Origin: Candidatus Woesearchaeota archaeon
Lineage (GTDB): Archaea > Nanobdellota > Nanobdellia > Woesearchaeales > JABIAG01
Assembly (NCBI GenBank): GCA_018653365.1
Contig: JABIAG010000001.1
Location: 352,001-416,000 of the forward strand
DNA: 64,000 nucleotides
Direction: 5' to 3'
Part shown: positions 1 through 18,166 of the stretch, in pieces
Numbering within the stretch: the stretch's first letter is position 1
Layout: each line of letters starts with the position of its first letter
Made by a program: the position numbers and the translations under genes
Notes under the pieces: generated by a model
Database searches by the model: none
Told to the model about the DNA's origin: nothing
What the model saw: the letters and a program-made list of their open reading frames with translations, nothing else

Positions 1-2541
1 CAAAACTTATCAACAAGATCATCTCCTCCAAAACACGCAATAACCTTAGTTGGACACACATCAACATTCTTGGCATCAATGCAAGCATATTATGCAGGAG
101 CGTTAGGGATGGCTTATGTGAATCTAGCTTTTGCACCATTTCTAGAAGGTATGTCGAGAACAAATGTTGGAAGAGTAAAAGAGGAAGTATTGGCCGCTCT
201 TGTAGGGGATCAGAGTTTGCATGGACGATTATCAAGCTATCTTGGTGCTGCTGAAGATTGGAAAAGAGTTTCTGGAGAGTTAGCTAATCGAAGTGTATCT
301 GATTCAGATTTAGAAACAATAGTGGGTTCGGTTTCAACAAAATTAGAGGGTAAACCAGAACTAGAACAATTTATGACTTTAGTTAATGATTATCGAGACA
401 TGCGAAGACAGGCAAAAGAACTGAATGCAATGTTAACAGACCCAACTCTTGTTGGAAGTTTAATGGAAGATATTCTTGAACGATTTGAGGGCAATGACGT
501 GTTATCAGACGAATTCCAACGATTAATGGTACAATATACTGACATGAAACAAATAGCGCAAAATTTTGTTTTTACACTATCACAATGCGCATTCTCTAGA
601 GGAAGTCAAACAATATTCACTGATGCAAACTTACATACTGGAGTGCCAACTGCACTGAAAGATATACCTATAGTAGTTCCAGGGGGAAGATATAGATTAA
701 TAGATAAAGAAACTGGAGAGACTGAAGATTTGCGAGCAAGAAAAGAACCAACAAGTAAAGATGGGTTCATATATACTGATTCCGAAGGAAATGTATTCTT
801 AGATGGTGAAGGAAATTTTAATTACAAACTTGCAAAAGAACAAGGAAGACGATTTGTAACTTATGGAGATTATGAAGAGACCTCACAAGAATTTCTAGAA
901 GCATTACTTGATGTTTACATGGAGGGAGATGAAATAGGAATGATGTTCCCATTCCCAAAATGTGACGTACATGTAGATGCCAATACCTTCAAACACGAAA
1001 GACAAAGACAACTATTAAGAAAAACATGTGAAGTGGCAGCTAAAAATTCAAGCGCATACTTTATCTTTGACAGAGATGCAGTAACCCTTGCTGCATGTTG
1101 CAGATTAAAAACTGCAGTAGACCCAAAAGCATTAGAACATCCCGAATCATTAAGATTTTGTGGATTCCAAAACGTAACCATAAACGTTCCACAAGCATCA
1201 TACCGAGCAGCAGAAGCTGGAAATTTAAATCTTGATGGAATTATTGATGAAGTTTTAGAAACCATGGAAACAGCACTTCAAGCTCATATCCAAAAAAGAG
1301 TAAAAACAGAAGAATTAATGCAACCAGGAGGACCATTGCACCAAATTGGAAAACCAAGCATGGATGGAAATCCTTATGTTGACTTAGATAAAGCAACATA
1401 CATAGTTGGAATGATTGGAGTAAATGACGCTGTCAAATTATTGACTGATTCTGAATTGCATGAAAATGAGGAATCAATGCAGGCAGGATTAGAGATCATT
1501 GCTGCAATGTATCAAAAAGCAAAAGAGATGAGTGAAAGAACAGGATGGAAAATTTCCCTAGAAGAAAGTCCTGCAGAAAGTGCAGCAAGAAACTTAGCAT
1601 TAAGAGACTTACGTCATCCTGTTTACGGAAAATACGCAAAACAGGTAATACAAGGAACTGAAGAGGACCCATACTATACAAACTCTGTACACCTAAGAGC
1701 AGATGCAAAAGATGTAGGCCCAATAGAAAGAATACAAAAACAATCAATGTTCCACCCAGTAATAGAATCTGGGGCAATTATCCATTTATTCACGGGCGAA
1801 GCAGATATAGATCCAGATGCATTATATGATTTAGTACAAAATATTTACGAAAATACACAATGTGCACAAATAACTGTATCTGGAACACATTCATTCTGTC
1901 CAGGATGTGGAACCCAAACAAGAGGAGAAGCGTTTGAATGTCCAAGATGTGGGACAGAAACAGATGTAATGCAAAAAGTTGTTGGATACAATTCTAAAAT
2001 GGTAAATTGGAATGGATCAAAACGAAGAGAATCAGAGGCAAGAGGAAGAGGAAGTTATGCTGCAGATGCATCTGAATGTATTGCAAAAGGAGACGATCTT
2101 GCTGAAGCATTAATACCCGGACAACCCGCAGTAAAAGCAGTAGTATATGGAATAAAACATCACCATCATTGTGACTGGTGTGAAGACCTGAATGATGCAG
2201 TAACCAAATTGGTAGGAAACAATTACAAAGGAAAAGTAGATGTAGAATTTGTAGATGTAACTGCACCAGGAGTAGAGGGAAGACAAAACTTAGCAAGAGC
2301 AATGCGAGCAGGTATAAATATGGGTACTACTCCCGGAGTGGGATTCGAATATAATACTGAAGGAATTCCTAGGCCCGTAGATACCGTGCGACCTTTAGAA
2401 ACAGAAAGTCTTGTACGACAAAATAGAGAAACTGGACACTTAGATGTGAAATATAAATTTCTAGACAAAGCCGGAGCTCCAAAAGTAAGAAAAGCACTTG
2501 ACGCGGTTCTTGCAGAAGCAGAAAGATATCTCACAACATAA
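1..2541 (+). CDS. nrdD: Anaerobic (class III) ribonucleoside-triphosphate reductase, 5'-truncated, with C-terminal thioredoxin/glutaredoxin-like domain
   Basis: Frame open from base 1 (QNLSTRSSPPKH...). Motifs: SRGSQT, FPFPK, AACCRL, LEESPAES, YYTNS, Zn site CPGC..CPRC, glycyl loop KVVGY. Extra C-terminal CDWC domain. Adjacent to nrdG. Confidence 0.95.
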   Translation, partial: QNLSTRSSPPKHAITLVGHTSTFLASMQAYYAGALGMAYVNLAFAPFLEGMSRTNVGRVKEEVLAALVGDQSLHGRLSSYLGAAEDWKRVSGELANRSVSDSDLETIVGSVSTKLEGKPELEQFMTLVNDYRDMRRQAKELNAMLTDPTLVGSLMEDILERFEGNDVLSDEFQRLMVQYTDMKQIAQNFVFTLSQCAFSRGSQTIFTDANLHTGVPTALKDIPIVVPGGRYRLIDKETGETEDLRARKEPTSKDGFIYTDSEGNVFLDGEGNFNYKLAKEQGRRFVTYGDYEETSQEFLEALLDVYMEGDEIGMMFPFPKCDVHVDANTFKHERQRQLLRKTCEVAAKNSSAYFIFDRDAVTLAACCRLKTAVDPKALEHPESLRFCGFQNVTINVPQASYRAAEAGNLNLDGIIDEVLETMETALQAHIQKRVKTEELMQPGGPLHQIGKPSMDGNPYVDLDKATYIVGMIGVNDAVKLLTDSELHENEESMQAGLEIIAAMYQKAKEMSERTGWKISLEESPAESAARNLALRDLRHPVYGKYAKQVIQGTEEDPYYTNSVHLRADAKDVGPIERIQKQSMFHPVIESGAIIHLFTGEADIDPDALYDLVQNIYENTQCAQITVSGTHSFCPGCGTQTRGEAFECPRCGTETDVMQKVVGYNSKMVNWNGSKRRESEARGRGSYAADASECIAKGDDLAEALIPGQPAVKAVVYGIKHHHHCDWCEDLNDAVTKLVGNNYKGKVDVEFVDVTAPGVEGRQNLARAMRAGINMGTTPGVGFEYNTEGIPRPVDTVRPLETESLVRQNRETGHLDVKYKFLDKAGAPKVRKALDAVLAEAERYLTT

Positions 2542-2542
2542 A

Positions 2543-3265
2543 ATGAATTTTGGTAACATATCTTCATCAGTGGATTTAGTCAGTTTCAGTAATGCAGAAG
2601 AACCCACAACAGTTCTATTTTATCAGGGATGCAATTTTGGGTGCGGGTATTGTCATAATAGCAACTTATGGCATGCCGAGGACGATACGCTAACTGAAAA
2701 AGGATTAAACGCAGTACTTTCAACTGCAAGAAGCAGATGGGTAAAGCTCGTGAACGTTTCTGGGGGAGAGCCAACAGAACAATTTGGTAATTTATGGGAT
2801 CTAACTGGTTATTTGAAACAACAAGGTTTTAAAGTAAAACTTGATACAAACGGAAGTCATCCCGAAGTTCTAGAAACCTTACTTGAATATGCTTTAGTAG
2901 ATTATGCTGCGATGGACATTAAAGGAACACTGGCACAGTATCCAGAAATAACTGGGTTTAGTGATGTTGAAAAAATAAGAAACTCAATAGAGTTAGTACA
3001 ATTTATGGGCAATCAAGGATTTGGTTACGAATTCAGAACAACAGCAGTTCCTGGCATTCATGGTGAATCGGAAATAAGGGAGATTGGGGAGATGTTACGC
3101 GGATCAAGAAGATATGCAATACAACAATTCAGACCTGATCTAGATGGGGGATGCTTAAACCCCCAATTTTGCAAGAAAGAATCCTATCCTGGTGAAACAT
3201 TAAGAGAGTTTGCAGAAGTAGTAAAAGACGATTTTGAAACAGTAATAGTTAGAGCAAGAGATTAG
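2543..3265 (+). CDS. nrdG: Anaerobic RNR activating enzyme (radical SAM)
   Basis: GCNFGCGYCHN, SGGEPT, KLDTNGS, YEFRTT. ATG at 2543 directly after the nrdD stop is preferred over the 2498 start. Confidence 0.93.
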   Translation: MNFGNISSSVDLVSFSNAEEPTTVLFYQGCNFGCGYCHNSNLWHAEDDTLTEKGLNAVLSTARSRWVKLVNVSGGEPTEQFGNLWDLTGYLKQQGFKVKLDTNGSHPEVLETLLEYALVDYAAMDIKGTLAQYPEITGFSDVEKIRNSIELVQFMGNQGFGYEFRTTAVPGIHGESEIREIGEMLRGSRRYAIQQFRPDLDGGCLNPQFCKKESYPGETLREFAEVVKDDFETVIVRARD

Positions 3266-6416: not shown

Positions 6417-6455
6417 ACATAAATCTTTAAAAAAAGGTCTTTGTTACTACTTTAA

Positions 6456-8159
6456 ATGGGGGATGAATCTTTGTCGGGAATGAACGCTTCAGTACAACAA
6501 ACATATATTTCTTTAGATGAAAGAGCAGAACAAGTCTATCATAGTATTCTAGAAGGAAGTCCCGAGTTTGCATTGTGGATAACAACTCCAAAACAAATAA
6601 CCTTTAATGATGAACAAAAGATGCAGATATTATTCTCAAATGCGTTAACAGCAGAAATGGCTTTGAAACGTTATGAGGAAGCATTAAGTGCAGCAGCAAG
6701 AAGAACAGGGAACTTTTCAGGAATGGATGTGCCGAGAGTTAGTAAGCTATGTTATGATGCAATAGCACCAAAAGCTGATGAAACAGTTCCTGAGCCAAAA
6801 CCTCGAAGAAAAAGTGAAATAAGTGCAGAAGGCCATTATGCTAACACCGATTTTGAAGCGGCATTAGCAAAACTAACTGTGAGAGGTGCAATAGACCGAT
6901 CAGAATACTTTCGTGGTGATTATAATGGAAGAGCATTTGCAAAGGGTATGGCCGTAATAGATAGTTTAAGATCAAAAAAAGCCATACGAAGAGCACTAAG
7001 AATCGTTGGCGATAACAGTTCAGGAAAAACAACTCTTCTAATGTACCTTGCGACCGTAGCAATAGAACATGGATTGACTCCTTTTTATTTAGATTTAGTG
7101 TACTTAGCAGATCAATATGATGCAATGGCAAAAAGTCCAACTAAGCCAACAAAAGAAGACTGGGCAAAGGTGAATTACAGTCCACAAGCACAAGCAGCAG
7201 ATCTGATCTTATTAGATGGTTGGGAAGGAATAATGAAAAAAGGGGATCCTAAAACAAATCAGGGGGCTCAAAGAAAAGCCCTTGAACTAACTAATGCAGG
7301 TTTAAGTAGAGGAAAAGGAGTTGTAATGGCATATTCCGGAGATGTGGCAAGCTGGGTTAAAATGATTGAAGGATTAAAAATTTTGGGAACCCAACAACCT
7401 GATGAACATTTTAGACATCTGTCAGCAAGAATGTCACGAGCAAGTCGCGCTGAATTACGTTATCCTTCTGTAGAAGAGAGACCTGATTTTATAAAAGATG
7501 CAATCCTTTCACTTACTGCAAGATGTAACGGACAATTAGATGAAGTTGCAGCACATTTGGACGGGATTTTAGGAAGAAATGCTGATCCTGGAACAATCAT
7601 GGCAAATGTGGAAGATCTAGTGGACGAAGCAGATGATGAAGATTGTGAAATAGACTTAGAATTTATCAAAGCAATATTGGGTGATGATCCAATCTTGGTG
7701 GAAGTCCCAGGACAAAGAGAGGATGCTATAAATGCATTAGTATTTAGAACAGCTTTAGACGCTATAGGTTTACCAAAAAGTTATGTGACTGGGAAAGGAC
7801 GAGAACCTACAAGAGTGAGAGCAAGAAATATGTTGTTAGCAGCAAGAAAAGCCTATACTGGTATGACTACTGCCGAACTAGTAGATGATTTACCAATAGG
7901 AAGAGCAACAGTAACACATAGTTTGAATAGTGTGGAAGAACAAGTGGGGGCAAATGACTTAGATGGATTCTTAACTCACATAGGTGCAACTCTTTTCGCA
8001 GCAGGATATAAAGATGTAGAACGAAAACCAATAACTCCTGGAAAAAGAGATAAAAAACAACCAGCTACACAAACAAAACCAGTTAATGCAGGGTCTGGCG
8101 ATCTTGGATTGAGTGGAAATGTTTCAGATGTTAAGGGAGGAAGTATTTTTCGTCGTTAA
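6456..8159 (+). CDS. dnaA: Divergent homolog of bacterial replication initiator DnaA (domains I, II, AAA+ III, HTH IV)
   Basis: Domain I-like EFALWI..N..KRY; YFRGDYN..A (cf. FVxGxxN); Walker A GDNSSGKT; DLILLD; HLSARM (Arg finger); IDLEFIKAIL; domain IV-like GKGREPTRVRARNM...TVTHS. Confidence 0.8.
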   Translation: MGDESLSGMNASVQQTYISLDERAEQVYHSILEGSPEFALWITTPKQITFNDEQKMQILFSNALTAEMALKRYEEALSAAARRTGNFSGMDVPRVSKLCYDAIAPKADETVPEPKPRRKSEISAEGHYANTDFEAALAKLTVRGAIDRSEYFRGDYNGRAFAKGMAVIDSLRSKKAIRRALRIVGDNSSGKTTLLMYLATVAIEHGLTPFYLDLVYLADQYDAMAKSPTKPTKEDWAKVNYSPQAQAADLILLDGWEGIMKKGDPKTNQGAQRKALELTNAGLSRGKGVVMAYSGDVASWVKMIEGLKILGTQQPDEHFRHLSARMSRASRAELRYPSVEERPDFIKDAILSLTARCNGQLDEVAAHLDGILGRNADPGTIMANVEDLVDEADDEDCEIDLEFIKAILGDDPILVEVPGQREDAINALVFRTALDAIGLPKSYVTGKGREPTRVRARNMLLAARKAYTGMTTAELVDDLPIGRATVTHSLNSVEEQVGANDLDGFLTHIGATLFAAGYKDVERKPITPGKRDKKQPATQTKPVNAGSGDLGLSGNVSDVKGGSIFRR

Positions 8160-8214: not shown

Positions 8215-9183
8215 ATGTATACGAAATATCTTTTTTTAGTGATGTTATTGCTTTGTATAAGTTTTGTTACAGCAGCTGAGAACGCCAATGTATTTCTTAG
8301 TTTGAAAGAGGCAACAACTAATATCGATATTAACAAAGTGGTTGTTTACATAGAAGAAAATGAACAGGTCATGAATAAATATGTTCCTAAAGGAGAAATT
8401 CTAAAATTAAGTCTAGAAAATGGCGAACACCATGTTACAATCAAAGTTGATGACCTAACAACCGAAGGAATAGACTATTTTGCTAAAACACAATTAACAG
8501 TACAAACAAGTCTGATTGAGGGAGTGTTTCTTTACTCTGTAGGTTCATTAAGAGGAATAGTAAAAGACGAACTTGATAATGTAATACCAAATGCTGAAAT
8601 AAAAATCGAATGCGGTTCAGATTATGGATTAAACTTACCTACAAAAGCCGATTCTTTTGGCACATTTAATACCGAAGTACCAATCGGGAACTGTAAGGTT
8701 TTTGCCCGGTCTGAAGAAGCAGTTAGCATGCAAGAATTTGAGGTAAGTAAGGGAGATGTGATTGATCTAGAACTAAATTTGGACAAAGTAAAAAAAGAAA
8801 AATCAAACCTGCTTGCCTGGAGTTTGATTATCTTGCTTGTAGTTATAATTGTTATCTTTCGGTGGAAACCGATTAAGAAAAAAACAAAAAAACCTGAAAC
8901 GATCATTAAAAAAGAGGTAAAATTAGTAGAACGATCAAAAGATGTATACAACACCTTAAAAGAAAAAGAAAAAGAAATAATTGACTTCATATTAGAGAGT
9001 AAGGGAAGTACAACCCAAGCAAAAATACACTATGGCACTGGAATTCCAAAAGCATCATTATTTAGATATGTACAATCATTAGAACAAAAAAATGTTATTC
9101 AAACACAAAAAATTGGAAAGGTAAAAAAAATCAGGTTTACCGACTGGTTTTTAGGTAAAAACACTTCTGAAAACGAACAATAG
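8215..9183 (+). CDS. Membrane-anchored protein with extracellular beta domains and cytoplasmic C-terminal winged HTH
   Basis: Signal peptide, carboxypeptidase-regulatory-like beta region, one TM helix, then wHTH (TTQAKIHYGTGIPKASLFRYVQSLEQKNVI). Confidence 0.8.
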   Translation: MYTKYLFLVMLLLCISFVTAAENANVFLSLKEATTNIDINKVVVYIEENEQVMNKYVPKGEILKLSLENGEHHVTIKVDDLTTEGIDYFAKTQLTVQTSLIEGVFLYSVGSLRGIVKDELDNVIPNAEIKIECGSDYGLNLPTKADSFGTFNTEVPIGNCKVFARSEEAVSMQEFEVSKGDVIDLELNLDKVKKEKSNLLAWSLIILLVVIIVIFRWKPIKKKTKKPETIIKKEVKLVERSKDVYNTLKEKEKEIIDFILESKGSTTQAKIHYGTGIPKASLFRYVQSLEQKNVIQTQKIGKVKKIRFTDWFLGKNTSENEQ

Positions 9184-9230
9184 TTCCACATCGTTCCAAT
9201 CGTTCCACTCAACCTATTTATATAGTTCCA
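9175..9230 (+). promoter_or_regulatory. GTTCCA repeat array around the TATA box of the 9270 gene
   Basis: GTTCCA at 9183, 9193, 9202 and 9225; TTTATATA at 9217-9224. Confidence 0.55.
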
Positions 9231-17611: not shown

Positions 17612-18166
17612 ATGACTACTACAGACGCTGATGCACAAGTTCGTTTTCCAGGTATGGGAATAGCAAGTGAAGAAAGACTTGCGAGAACGGCTGAACTTTT
17701 TGGCGAAGTATTCTTAAATTATTGTGCAGGACTTGTTGGAGATGAACAGGCTTCTGATCTATATCAAGATGTTTTCCAAACAGCAGTAGAACAGACTGAT
17801 AGTCTAGGCCCAGATCAAGACGCGCTAATTTGGCTTCGTAATATGGCTCGAAACAGAGCAAGAGGTTATCATAAATCTCGTGAAATGCAGCTAAAACGTT
17901 TTGGCGAAGCAGATGAAGCTGATCTTTCAGATGAGGGATTAAGTCCGCGTGATATGGCACAAAGATCAGACTTACATAACGCAGTAAGAGCACAAGTAGA
18001 TGCTTTACAACCCACTTACCAAGAAGCAATTAGACTAACACTTTTAGAAGGTCATTCACAAAGACGGGCAGCAGAACTGGCAGGTTGTTCTCCAAGTACA
18101 ATTCAATACAGAGTAGGAAAAGCAAAAGAGGCATTAAGAACCAGTTTAGGTCAAATTCTAGATTAA
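17612..18166 (+). CDS. ECF-type sigma-70 family RNA polymerase sigma factor homolog
   Basis: Region 2 (ASDLYQDVF...IWLRNMARN) and region 4 (VDALQPTYQEAIRL..LEGHSQRRAAELAGCSPSTIQYRVGKAKEAL). Confidence 0.88.
   Translation: MTTTDADAQVRFPGMGIASEERLARTAELFGEVFLNYCAGLVGDEQASDLYQDVFQTAVEQTDSLGPDQDALIWLRNMARNRARGYHKSREMQLKRFGEADEADLSDEGLSPRDMAQRSDLHNAVRAQVDALQPTYQEAIRLTLLEGHSQRRAAELAGCSPSTIQYRVGKAKEALRTSLGQILD

What the first reader, a model, noticed from the sequence alone, without database searches (positions are those of the whole stretch)
6456..8159. Full four-domain bacterial DnaA homolog inside an archaeal genome
Seen: segments matching every DnaA domain. Domain I: EFALWI..N..KRY, vs E. coli EFSMWI..N..KY. 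AAA+: YFRGDYNGRA, GDNSSGKT, DLILLD, HLSARM, YPSVEER, IDLEFIKAIL. Domain IV: GKGREPTRVRARNM..TVTHS, vs SKRRSRSVARPRQM..TVLHA. The gene sits between archaeal genes, is leaderless behind a TATA-like element and has AT-rich host-like codons. Established: archaea initiate replication with Orc1/Cdc6, not DnaA. Key residues differ: Walker B reads LLDG, sensor II (NVRELEG) appears replaced by DPGTIMA, and the box-reading RDHTT is IGRAT. Inference: an altered-specificity, possibly hydrolysis-deficient DnaA, either repurposed in the archaeon or acting on a bacterial partner's replication.
Basis: partly seen in the sequence, partly recalled or inferred. Interest (0 to 1): 0.9.

Follow-up and report, generated by a model that had tools for sequence, protein, structure and literature searches.

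The report
Rewired bacterial DnaA in a nano-archaeon
A tiny marine archaeon carries, as its own chromosomal gene, a full-length but heavily altered copy of the bacterial replication starter DnaA; it probably cannot start replication, and its relatives look like inhibitors aimed at a bacterial cell, which would be a direct clue that these archaea live on bacteria.

Summary
The ORF (567 aa) is real and is a DnaA homolog with domains I to IV. It fails the direct Pfam/NCBIfam DnaA tests, but a profile of its family hits B. subtilis DnaA end to end (E 1e-34), and language-model and structure searches rank DnaA first. It is not chimeric: 24 contigs carry it with the same archaeal neighbours, a congener has a syntenic 44-46% ortholog, and another has the empty site. 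It belongs to a rare, fast-evolving family of about ten proteins, all in archaeal contexts in two Nanobdellota orders, with archaeal TATA boxes. The genome keeps three orc1/cdc6 genes; dnaN, dnaB and DnaA-box clusters were not found. Walker A and the arginine finger are kept. The second Walker B acid, sensor II, unwinding residues and box-reading residues are lost, so it is not an initiator. Relatives have an Hda-like Box VII, and six of nine carry a beta-clamp-like motif in exposed linkers (this copy does not). Best reading: a DnaA/Hda mimic acting on a bacterial partner (0.45). Rival: a native archaeal regulator (0.35). The scan noted partial DnaA modules in other archaea, and this same stretch once, but no full-length copy on other DNA.

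The parts
6424..6435 (+). Archaeal TATA box (TC then TTTAAAAA), 30 nt before the ATG; implies a leaderless transcript
   Evidence: Sequence; same spacing (-28 to -31) in six of six family genes with intact upstream DNA; -29/-30 is the genome-wide peak. Transcription itself is inferred.
6456..8159 (+). DnaA-derived gene, 567 aa (P0001)
6507..6770 (+). Domain I (residues about 18-105), most diverged folded part (31% to ortholog); Phe46 position is Leu64
   Evidence: Family profile hits B. subtilis domain I structure 4tps at E 2.3e-6; Atlas structure match spans residues 16-500
6771..6875 (+). Domain II, disordered linker
   Evidence: pLDDT under 50 for residues 109-144
6876..7685 (+). Domain III, DnaA-type AAA+ core and lid (residues 141-410)
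   Evidence: VIA Z 19.9, rmsd 3.2, 233 aligned to 8bv3; Z 18.9 to Hda 5x06; best non-initiator AAA+ Z 16
7008..7031 (+). Walker A, Lys191/Thr192 kept
7200..7226 (+). Walker B: Asp254 kept, second Asp (E. coli D236, invariant in 80 bacterial DnaAs) is Gly255; Glu257 follows, as in Hda
7416..7433 (+). Box VII with the arginine finger Arg325 kept; R281 position is His321; preceded by a family-specific insertion
7584..7595 (+). Sensor II position: Arg334 replaced by Gly379 (also Gly in the ortholog; Arg in most other family members)
7719..8003 (+). Domain IV helix-turn-helix: R399, R407 and H439 equivalents kept (R449, R457, H488); D433/H434/T435 replaced by G/R/A (S/S/Q in the ortholog)
8004..8156 (+). 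Basic, disordered C-terminal tail absent from bacterial DnaA, ending in a short peptide pattern shared with the ortholog

Best explanation
SHOWN (about 0.95): a domesticated, accessory, fast-evolving chromosomal gene of a Nanobdellota archaeon that descends from bacterial dnaA, keeps all four domains, and belongs to a small archaeal family. INFERRED from residues (about 0.85): it binds a nucleotide and DNA and offers an intact arginine finger to a neighbour, but is poor at hydrolysing its own ATP and cannot melt an origin or read canonical DnaA boxes, so it is not the cell's initiator. INFERRED mechanism (0.45): the family are DnaA/Hda mimics made by the archaeon to act in a bacterial partner. 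They sit on DNA (domain IV) and, in many members, on the bacterial beta clamp (linker motif), and use the arginine finger to trigger ATP hydrolysis in, or to cap, the partner's DnaA filament. This would stop host replication initiation and leave nucleotides for the symbiont. The window's copy is a derived form that has lost the clear clamp motif and sensor II, and would act as a filament poison rather than a clamp-timed inactivator.
For: Orc1/Cdc6 x3 present; dnaN, dnaB and bacterial rpoA not found in a 95% complete genome; DnaA boxes at chance level (9 seen, 11.9 expected) with no cluster. Arg finger kept in 8 of 9 members; Box VII reads D-L-x-[SD]-R-[LMI] in 6 of 9, like E. coli Hda, against 3 of 80 bacterial DnaAs; L185 matches Hda's eight residues at seven positions. 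Hda's Arg153 and clamp motif drive DnaA-ATP hydrolysis (PMC5397184). Q-type clamp-like motifs lie in linkers or tails of 6 of 9 members (shuffle P 9e-5, pattern chosen after seeing the first three); the two members found afterwards both had one (QGEMF, QMSLDF). P0003 linker plus domain IV with a bacterial beta clamp: weak support, score 0.38 against best control 0.00, runs agree in at least 78% of contacts, partner pLDDT at least 69; the mark was reached by 58 of 80 solved complexes and 2 of 110 mismatches, but at 0.60 or under by only 7 of the 80 and by both mismatches, and it may be memory of solved clamp-peptide structures. dN/dS about 0.43 against 0.09-0.17 for neighbours and patchy presence fit a host-interaction gene. 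The genome also has two sigma70-type genes, in the same Lys-poor protein class. Castelle et al. (PMC8204110) report sigma70 genes and murein transglycosylases in these lineages and leave bacterial hosts open.
Against: P0001 itself has no clamp motif. No signal peptide is evident in the sequence and no delivery route is shown. No bacterial host has been demonstrated for these archaea, and no SLT transglycosylase was found in this genome. Identity to bacterial DnaA is only 13-19%, so co-assembly with host DnaA is not a given. The loose clamp pattern also matches a buried domain IV helix in 66 of 80 bacterial DnaAs, so only its position in linkers is informative. The Hda likeness may be convergence through loss of constraint. 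Family members are related, so motif counts are not independent.
Confidence: 0.45

Rival explanations
1. Native regulator: the archaeon repurposed DnaA as a nucleotide-gated DNA-binding protein that controls its own genes or organises its chromosome, as bacterial DnaA also does as a transcription factor.
For: Archaeal promoter and host codons; basic loop and helix-turn-helix scaffold kept; changed recognition residues would suit new sites; domain IV is reused alone, in tandem and in fusions across Nanobdellota; no export signal; the bacterial-type NrdR-NrdD-NrdG operon lies 3 kb upstream.
Against: Recognition residues differ between syntenic orthologs; a congener with the same nrd operon lacks the gene; other members are not near nrd genes; no repeat shared by both ortholog loci; clamp-like motifs make little sense in a PCNA cell.
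Confidence: 0.35
2. Relic under relaxed selection: an old transferred dnaA that is slowly losing function.
For: Highest divergence in the locus, loss of catalytic and recognition residues, rare and patchy.
Against: Full-length open frames in both orthologs at dS above 1, dN/dS 0.43, conserved promoter, conserved Walker A and arginine finger across members only about 20% identical.
Confidence: 0.12
3. True initiator for a second origin or for a co-resident plasmid or virus.
For: All four domains and the arginine finger are kept; sensor II is dispensable for initiation in E. coli (PMC5742627).
Against: V211, R245, R227, K243 and R281 equivalents are not kept (the alignment has insertions here); no box cluster; dnaB and dnaN not found; three orc1/cdc6; no mobile-element genes beside any member; no viral match.
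Confidence: 0.05
4. Assembly or binning artefact (bacterial DNA in an archaeal bin).
For: Canonical dnaA hits in three other bins of this order are bacterial contaminant contigs.
Against: 24 contigs with the same neighbours, seven blocks over 1 Mb; single contigs span the gene and its archaeal flanks with no differing letters (X1 and X6 may be the source, X7 and X8 bridge the 5' and 3' junctions); syntenic ortholog in another species; host GC3.
Confidence: 0.02

Closest known systems
Bacterial DnaA (TIGR00362; PDB 8btg, 8bv3, 2z4r, 2hcb, 1j1v, 4tps)
   Same: Domain order I-II-III-IV, fold, Walker A, first Walker B Asp, Q247, arginine finger, R399, R407, H439
   Different: 13-19% identity; below all curated cut-offs; lacks D236, D269, R281, R334, H/B unwinding motifs and the DHT box-reading residues; extra Box VII insertion and basic tail; archaeal promoter; no dnaN next to it; accessory
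Hda (E. coli 5x06, Shewanella 3bos; TIGR03420)
   Same: DnaA-type AAA+ with a degenerate Walker B (D-x-x-E), kept arginine finger, D-L-x-S-R-L Box VII in most relatives, clamp-like motif in six of nine members
   Different: Keeps domains I and IV; canonical Walker A; motif mostly in the III-IV linker rather than at the N-terminus; the window's copy has His for the Box VII Asp and no clamp motif; archaeal host
Archaeal Orc1/Cdc6
   Same: Initiator-clade AAA+ with a C-terminal DNA-binding domain
   Different: C-terminal domain is DnaA domain IV, not a winged helix; not matched by TIGR02928; structure Z and E-values far below DnaA
Partial DnaA modules in archaea noted earlier by this scan (Thermoplasmatota DnaA-AAA+/DUF835 fusions; DPANN domain IV-only proteins)
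   Same: Bacterial DnaA parts domesticated in archaea that keep Orc1/Cdc6
   Different: Those have only domain III or only domain IV; this family keeps the whole protein
Sigma70 genes of Woesearchaeota (PMC8204110)
   Same: Bacterial information-processing protein without its bacterial partner machinery, function unknown
   Different: Published and widespread; the DnaA-like family is unreported and rare

Membership tests
DnaA (functional initiator) | Passes TIGR00362 / Bac_DnaA / Bac_DnaA_C cut-offs | tested here: not met
   No hit for P0001; Bac_DnaA_C 14.5 bits of 31.5; relatives reach 106 and 91 bits of 343.9
DnaA (homology) | Domains I, III and IV in order, homologous to DnaA | tested here: met
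   Family profile vs 8btg E 1.4e-34 over 28-503, 1j1v E 1.4e-11, 4tps E 2.3e-6; hhalign 99.8%; Atlas 0.96 and TM 0.56 over 16-500 from an independent model
DnaA (functional initiator) | Walker A and arginine finger | tested here: met
   K191, T192, R325
DnaA (functional initiator) | Walker B DD, sensor I Asp, sensor II Arg | tested here: not met
   G255, S294, G379
DnaA (functional initiator) | Single-strand binding and oligomer residues V211, R245, R227, K243, R281 | tested here: not met
   D222, G270, Q246, N268, H321; local insertions make single positions uncertain
DnaA (functional initiator) | DnaA signature (D433, H434, T435) and a cognate box cluster | tested here: not met
   G482, R483, A484; no box enrichment or cluster
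DnaA (functional initiator) | Origin unwinding and helicase loading | not testable with these tools
   Needs biochemistry; dnaB and dnaN not found in the genome
Hda | AAA+ only, without domains I and IV | tested here: not met
   Both domains present
Hda | Beta-clamp-binding motif | tested here: not met
   Absent in P0001; clamp-like motifs in six of nine family members; weak structural support for P0003
Hda | Box VII arginine finger acting in trans on DnaA-ATP | tested here: inconclusive
   Residue present; activity untested
Orc1/Cdc6 | TIGR02928 match and winged-helix C-terminus | tested here: not met
   The locus is not among the 13 TIGR02928 matches in the genome; C-terminus matches DnaA domain IV
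IstB / DnaC / generic AAA+ | Best match is IstB or DnaC/DnaI, no domain IV | tested here: not met
   IstB and DnaI E about 1e-3 against 1e-34 for DnaA; Z 15 against 20-22

The most novel reading that the evidence does not exclude
Nanobdellota archaea make DnaA/Hda mimics, with bacterial sliding-clamp motifs, that are delivered into bacterial hosts to shut down replication initiation; they are part of a co-regulated set of about 130 Lys-poor proteins (with sigma70-type factors) that works inside bacteria. This would be the first molecular case of an archaeon manipulating bacterial DNA replication.
Probability: 0.4. Interest if true: 0.93.

Novelty: new variant of a known kind. Interest (0 to 1): 0.76.

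Why it matters
DnaA is treated as a bacteria-only marker. A 2026 preprint on 208 complete Nanobdellota genomes states that dnaA is absent throughout (10.64898/2026.05.13.725050), and no paper found here describes a full-length archaeal homolog. This family is too diverged for standard HMM cut-offs. Whether Woesearchaeota and Pacearchaeota have bacterial hosts is an open question (PMC8204110). A protein whose likely partners (DnaA, beta clamp) exist only in bacteria makes it testable at the bench without culturing the archaeon. If instead it is a native regulator, it is a case of a bacterial initiator turned into an archaeal DNA-binding switch.

Tried and rejected
Direct Pfam, NCBIfam and PDB sequence searches with P0001: nothing but P-loop noise. 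Word-based homolog searches returned only the query, ABC proteins or four bacterial DnaAs. Single-sequence AlphaFold failed (pLDDT 36); the good model (pLDDT 84) used 52 bacterial DnaA rows, so its DnaA-first ranking is partly circular, and I rely as the independent evidence. Strong dnaA hits in G243, G195 and G044 were rejected as contaminant bacterial contigs; L187 is IstB. Metagenome and viral scans found no new members; phage hits were weak fragments. Second Atlas search (P0005, DnaA clusters skipped) gave no archaeal cluster. A repeat of the order search drew the same genomes. The order of G478 (240 genomes) had no full-length member; the order holding family f141 was only sampled (23 genomes). 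No RNA holder was listed. Genome-wide clamp-motif enrichment in the Lys-poor class was at best marginal (14 seen, 7.6 expected for the loosest pattern; none for stricter ones). The GTTCCAC repeat at 9178-9208 is two 12-nt copies after the next gene and has no counterpart in the ortholog locus: rejected as a target. A link to the nrd operon was rejected. The tree cannot name a donor: all archaeal branches are long. No named taxon was returned for the genome. No sigma70 promoter on the coding strand.

Full report
Observation. Window 6456-8159 is an intact 567-aa ORF between arginase and a membrane-anchored winged-helix gene, in the row nrdD-nrdG-pth2-argS-arginase-X-wHTH-S-layer-rps17e-alba. The genome is 1.09 Mb, 95% complete, 0.24% contaminated, from marine metagenomes. 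It is archaeal (Alba; three orc1/cdc6). The name Woesearchaeota comes from earlier scan notes, not from a tool result of mine.

Is it DnaA? Alone it misses every curated DnaA model and has no PDB hit; Bac_DnaA_C gives 14.5 bits. A full phmmer scan of 1.84 billion representatives returned seven relatives, one at 46% and six at about 25%, and no bacterial DnaA. Two of them pass the Bac_DnaA_C cut-off. A profile built only from these archaeal proteins hits B. subtilis DnaA end to end at E 1.4e-34, and the isolated domain I and domain IV structures separately. Profile-profile comparison with three bacterial DnaAs gives 99.8% over 416 columns. The ESM Atlas ranks DnaA clusters first by features (0.96) and by its own model (TM 0.56, residues 16-500). 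An AlphaFold model (pLDDT 84, built with bacterial DnaA rows, so partly circular) has a folded domain I, a disordered linker, AAA+ core and lid, a helical domain IV and a disordered tail. DnaA takes the top ten Foldseek ranks, and VIA gives Z 19.9, rmsd 3.2, 233 aligned to domain III, with Hda next. Homology over all four domains is established.

Is it really in the archaeon? Yes. 24 contigs read carry the identical protein with the same neighbours. Contigs of four runs lie across the locus with no differing letters. A congener has a syntenic ortholog, and another congener, 96% complete, has arginase directly followed by the wHTH gene. GC3 and synonymous codons are host-like. True contaminant dnaA contigs exist in other bins and look quite different.

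A family. Other members sit beside archaeal TyrRS, Elp3, Spt5/L11/STT3 and RpoE/S24e. Two contexts map to family f141 of another order; NCBI labels one member Pacearchaeota. Searching that genus gave two more full-length members in 18 genomes. In the window's order only 2 of 401 genomes had one. Six of six genes with intact upstream DNA have a TATA element at -28 to -31. They share derived motifs (after Walker A, at sensor I, and an insertion before Box VII) and form one side of a 100/100 branch against 30 bacterial DnaAs, but long branches forbid naming a donor or excluding attraction. Between the two orthologs dN/dS is about 0.43, against 0.09-0.17 for seven neighbours; identity is 44% against 70-94%. 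It is selected but fast-evolving.

Anatomy. Against E. coli DnaA (roles from PMC5742627), P0001 keeps K178, T179, D235, Q247, the arginine finger R285, R399, R407 and H439. It has lost D236, sensor I D269, R281, sensor II R334, the unwinding and oligomer residues V211, R245, R227 and K243, and the box-reading D433/H434/T435. R334 is needed for ATP hydrolysis; V211 and R245 for strand binding; T435 for box binding. The recognition residues differ between the orthologs. The genome has no excess or cluster of DnaA boxes, and dnaN, dnaB and bacterial rpoA were not found. I infer it is not an initiator.

Mechanism. What is conserved family-wide is nucleotide binding, the trans-acting finger and a DNA-binding scaffold. 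Box VII resembles Hda in 6 of 9 members against 3 of 80 bacterial DnaAs. Three of the first seven members had Q-x-[DN]-[LM]-F in the III-IV linker, where bacterial DnaA has none. Both later members had a clamp-like motif in a linker, and the ortholog has a hexamer-type one in its tail: 6 of 9, shuffle P 9e-5. The pattern was set after seeing the first cases, members are kin, and the loose pattern also hits a buried helix in most bacterial DnaAs, so position carries the argument. A predicted complex of the P0003 linker and domain IV with a bacterial clamp got weak support (0.38 against 0.00), possibly from likeness to solved clamp-peptide structures. In Hda, clamp motif plus arginine finger inactivate DnaA (PMC5397184). 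Archaea use PCNA (own knowledge), so these features point to a bacterial cytoplasm. P0001 lacks the motif, no export signal or host is known, and identity to DnaA is under 20%. I therefore put the mimic model at 0.45, a native regulator at 0.35, a relic at 0.12, an initiator at 0.05 and an artefact at 0.02.

Context. P0001 has host GC3 but is in the 98th percentile for Gly/Ala/Arg/Pro. It falls in a class of 132 such proteins that includes two sigma70-type factors and NrdD/NrdG. Their TATA boxes are preceded by TC in 24 of 57 cases against 17 of 242 (p 8e-10, post hoc), as is the box of this gene. That suggests a regulon, but the class also holds ordinary metabolic enzymes, so it does not prove export. 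Other Nanobdellota use domain IV alone, in two to four tandem copies, or behind a sigma-like region.

Comparison and verdict. It is a homolog, not a member, of functional DnaA; it may work like Hda but is not an Hda. Searches of the paper library found no full-length archaeal DnaA; one preprint reports absence; Castelle et al. describe sigma70 but not DnaA. New variant of a known kind, real and unreported, with an inferred mechanism that can be tested in laboratory bacteria. Interest 0.76.

Noticed in passing
window 17612-18166 (+) and G000 C1:619010-620095: Two sigma70-type genes (ECF-like, 184 aa; and 361 aa with regions 2 and 4) in a genome where bacterial rpoA was not found.
   Followed up: partly
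whole genome G000: About 130 genes with host-like GC3 but Lys/Ile/Asn-poor, Arg/Ala-rich products; their TATA boxes favour a preceding TC (p 8e-10, post hoc); two TFB paralogs at C1:514084 and C3:17906 could explain a separate regulon.
   Followed up: partly
L059, L061, L062, L065, L066, L060, L063, L064, L067, L070: Nanobdellota proteins made of one to four DnaA domain IV modules without the ATPase.
   Followed up: partly
L069:1408-2715 (-): 435-aa protein with a sigma70 region 2-like N-terminal part (by eye) and a C-terminal DnaA domain IV-like module.
   Followed up: no
window 1-3265 and G000 C1:350641-351084: Bacterial-type nrdR-nrdD-nrdG operon; NrdD has a thioredoxin-like C-terminal extension (by eye); conserved in congeners.
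   Followed up: partly
L021:9667-9774: A perfect 50-nt direct repeat (spacing 58) just after the ortholog, where the wHTH and S-layer genes of the window are missing; may be a deletion scar or an assembly feature.
   Followed up: no
L026, L164, L165, L185, L186: In family f141 the DnaA-like gene keeps a fixed place near LeuRS, DUF1003, an unknown 138-154 aa gene and AlaRS; the L164 copy has a frameshift near sensor II.
   Followed up: partly
L029, L030, L031: Canonical bacterial dnaA contigs mis-binned in three archaeal species representatives; a trap for surveys of DnaA in archaea.
   Followed up: yes
G000 C1:18100-18540: Long AT-rich stretch with ORB-like words upstream of the best orc1/cdc6 gene: likely the true origin.
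   Followed up: no
window 9178-9208: Two 12-nt direct repeats containing GTTCCAC between the wHTH and S-layer genes; no link to the DnaA-like gene found.
   Followed up: partly
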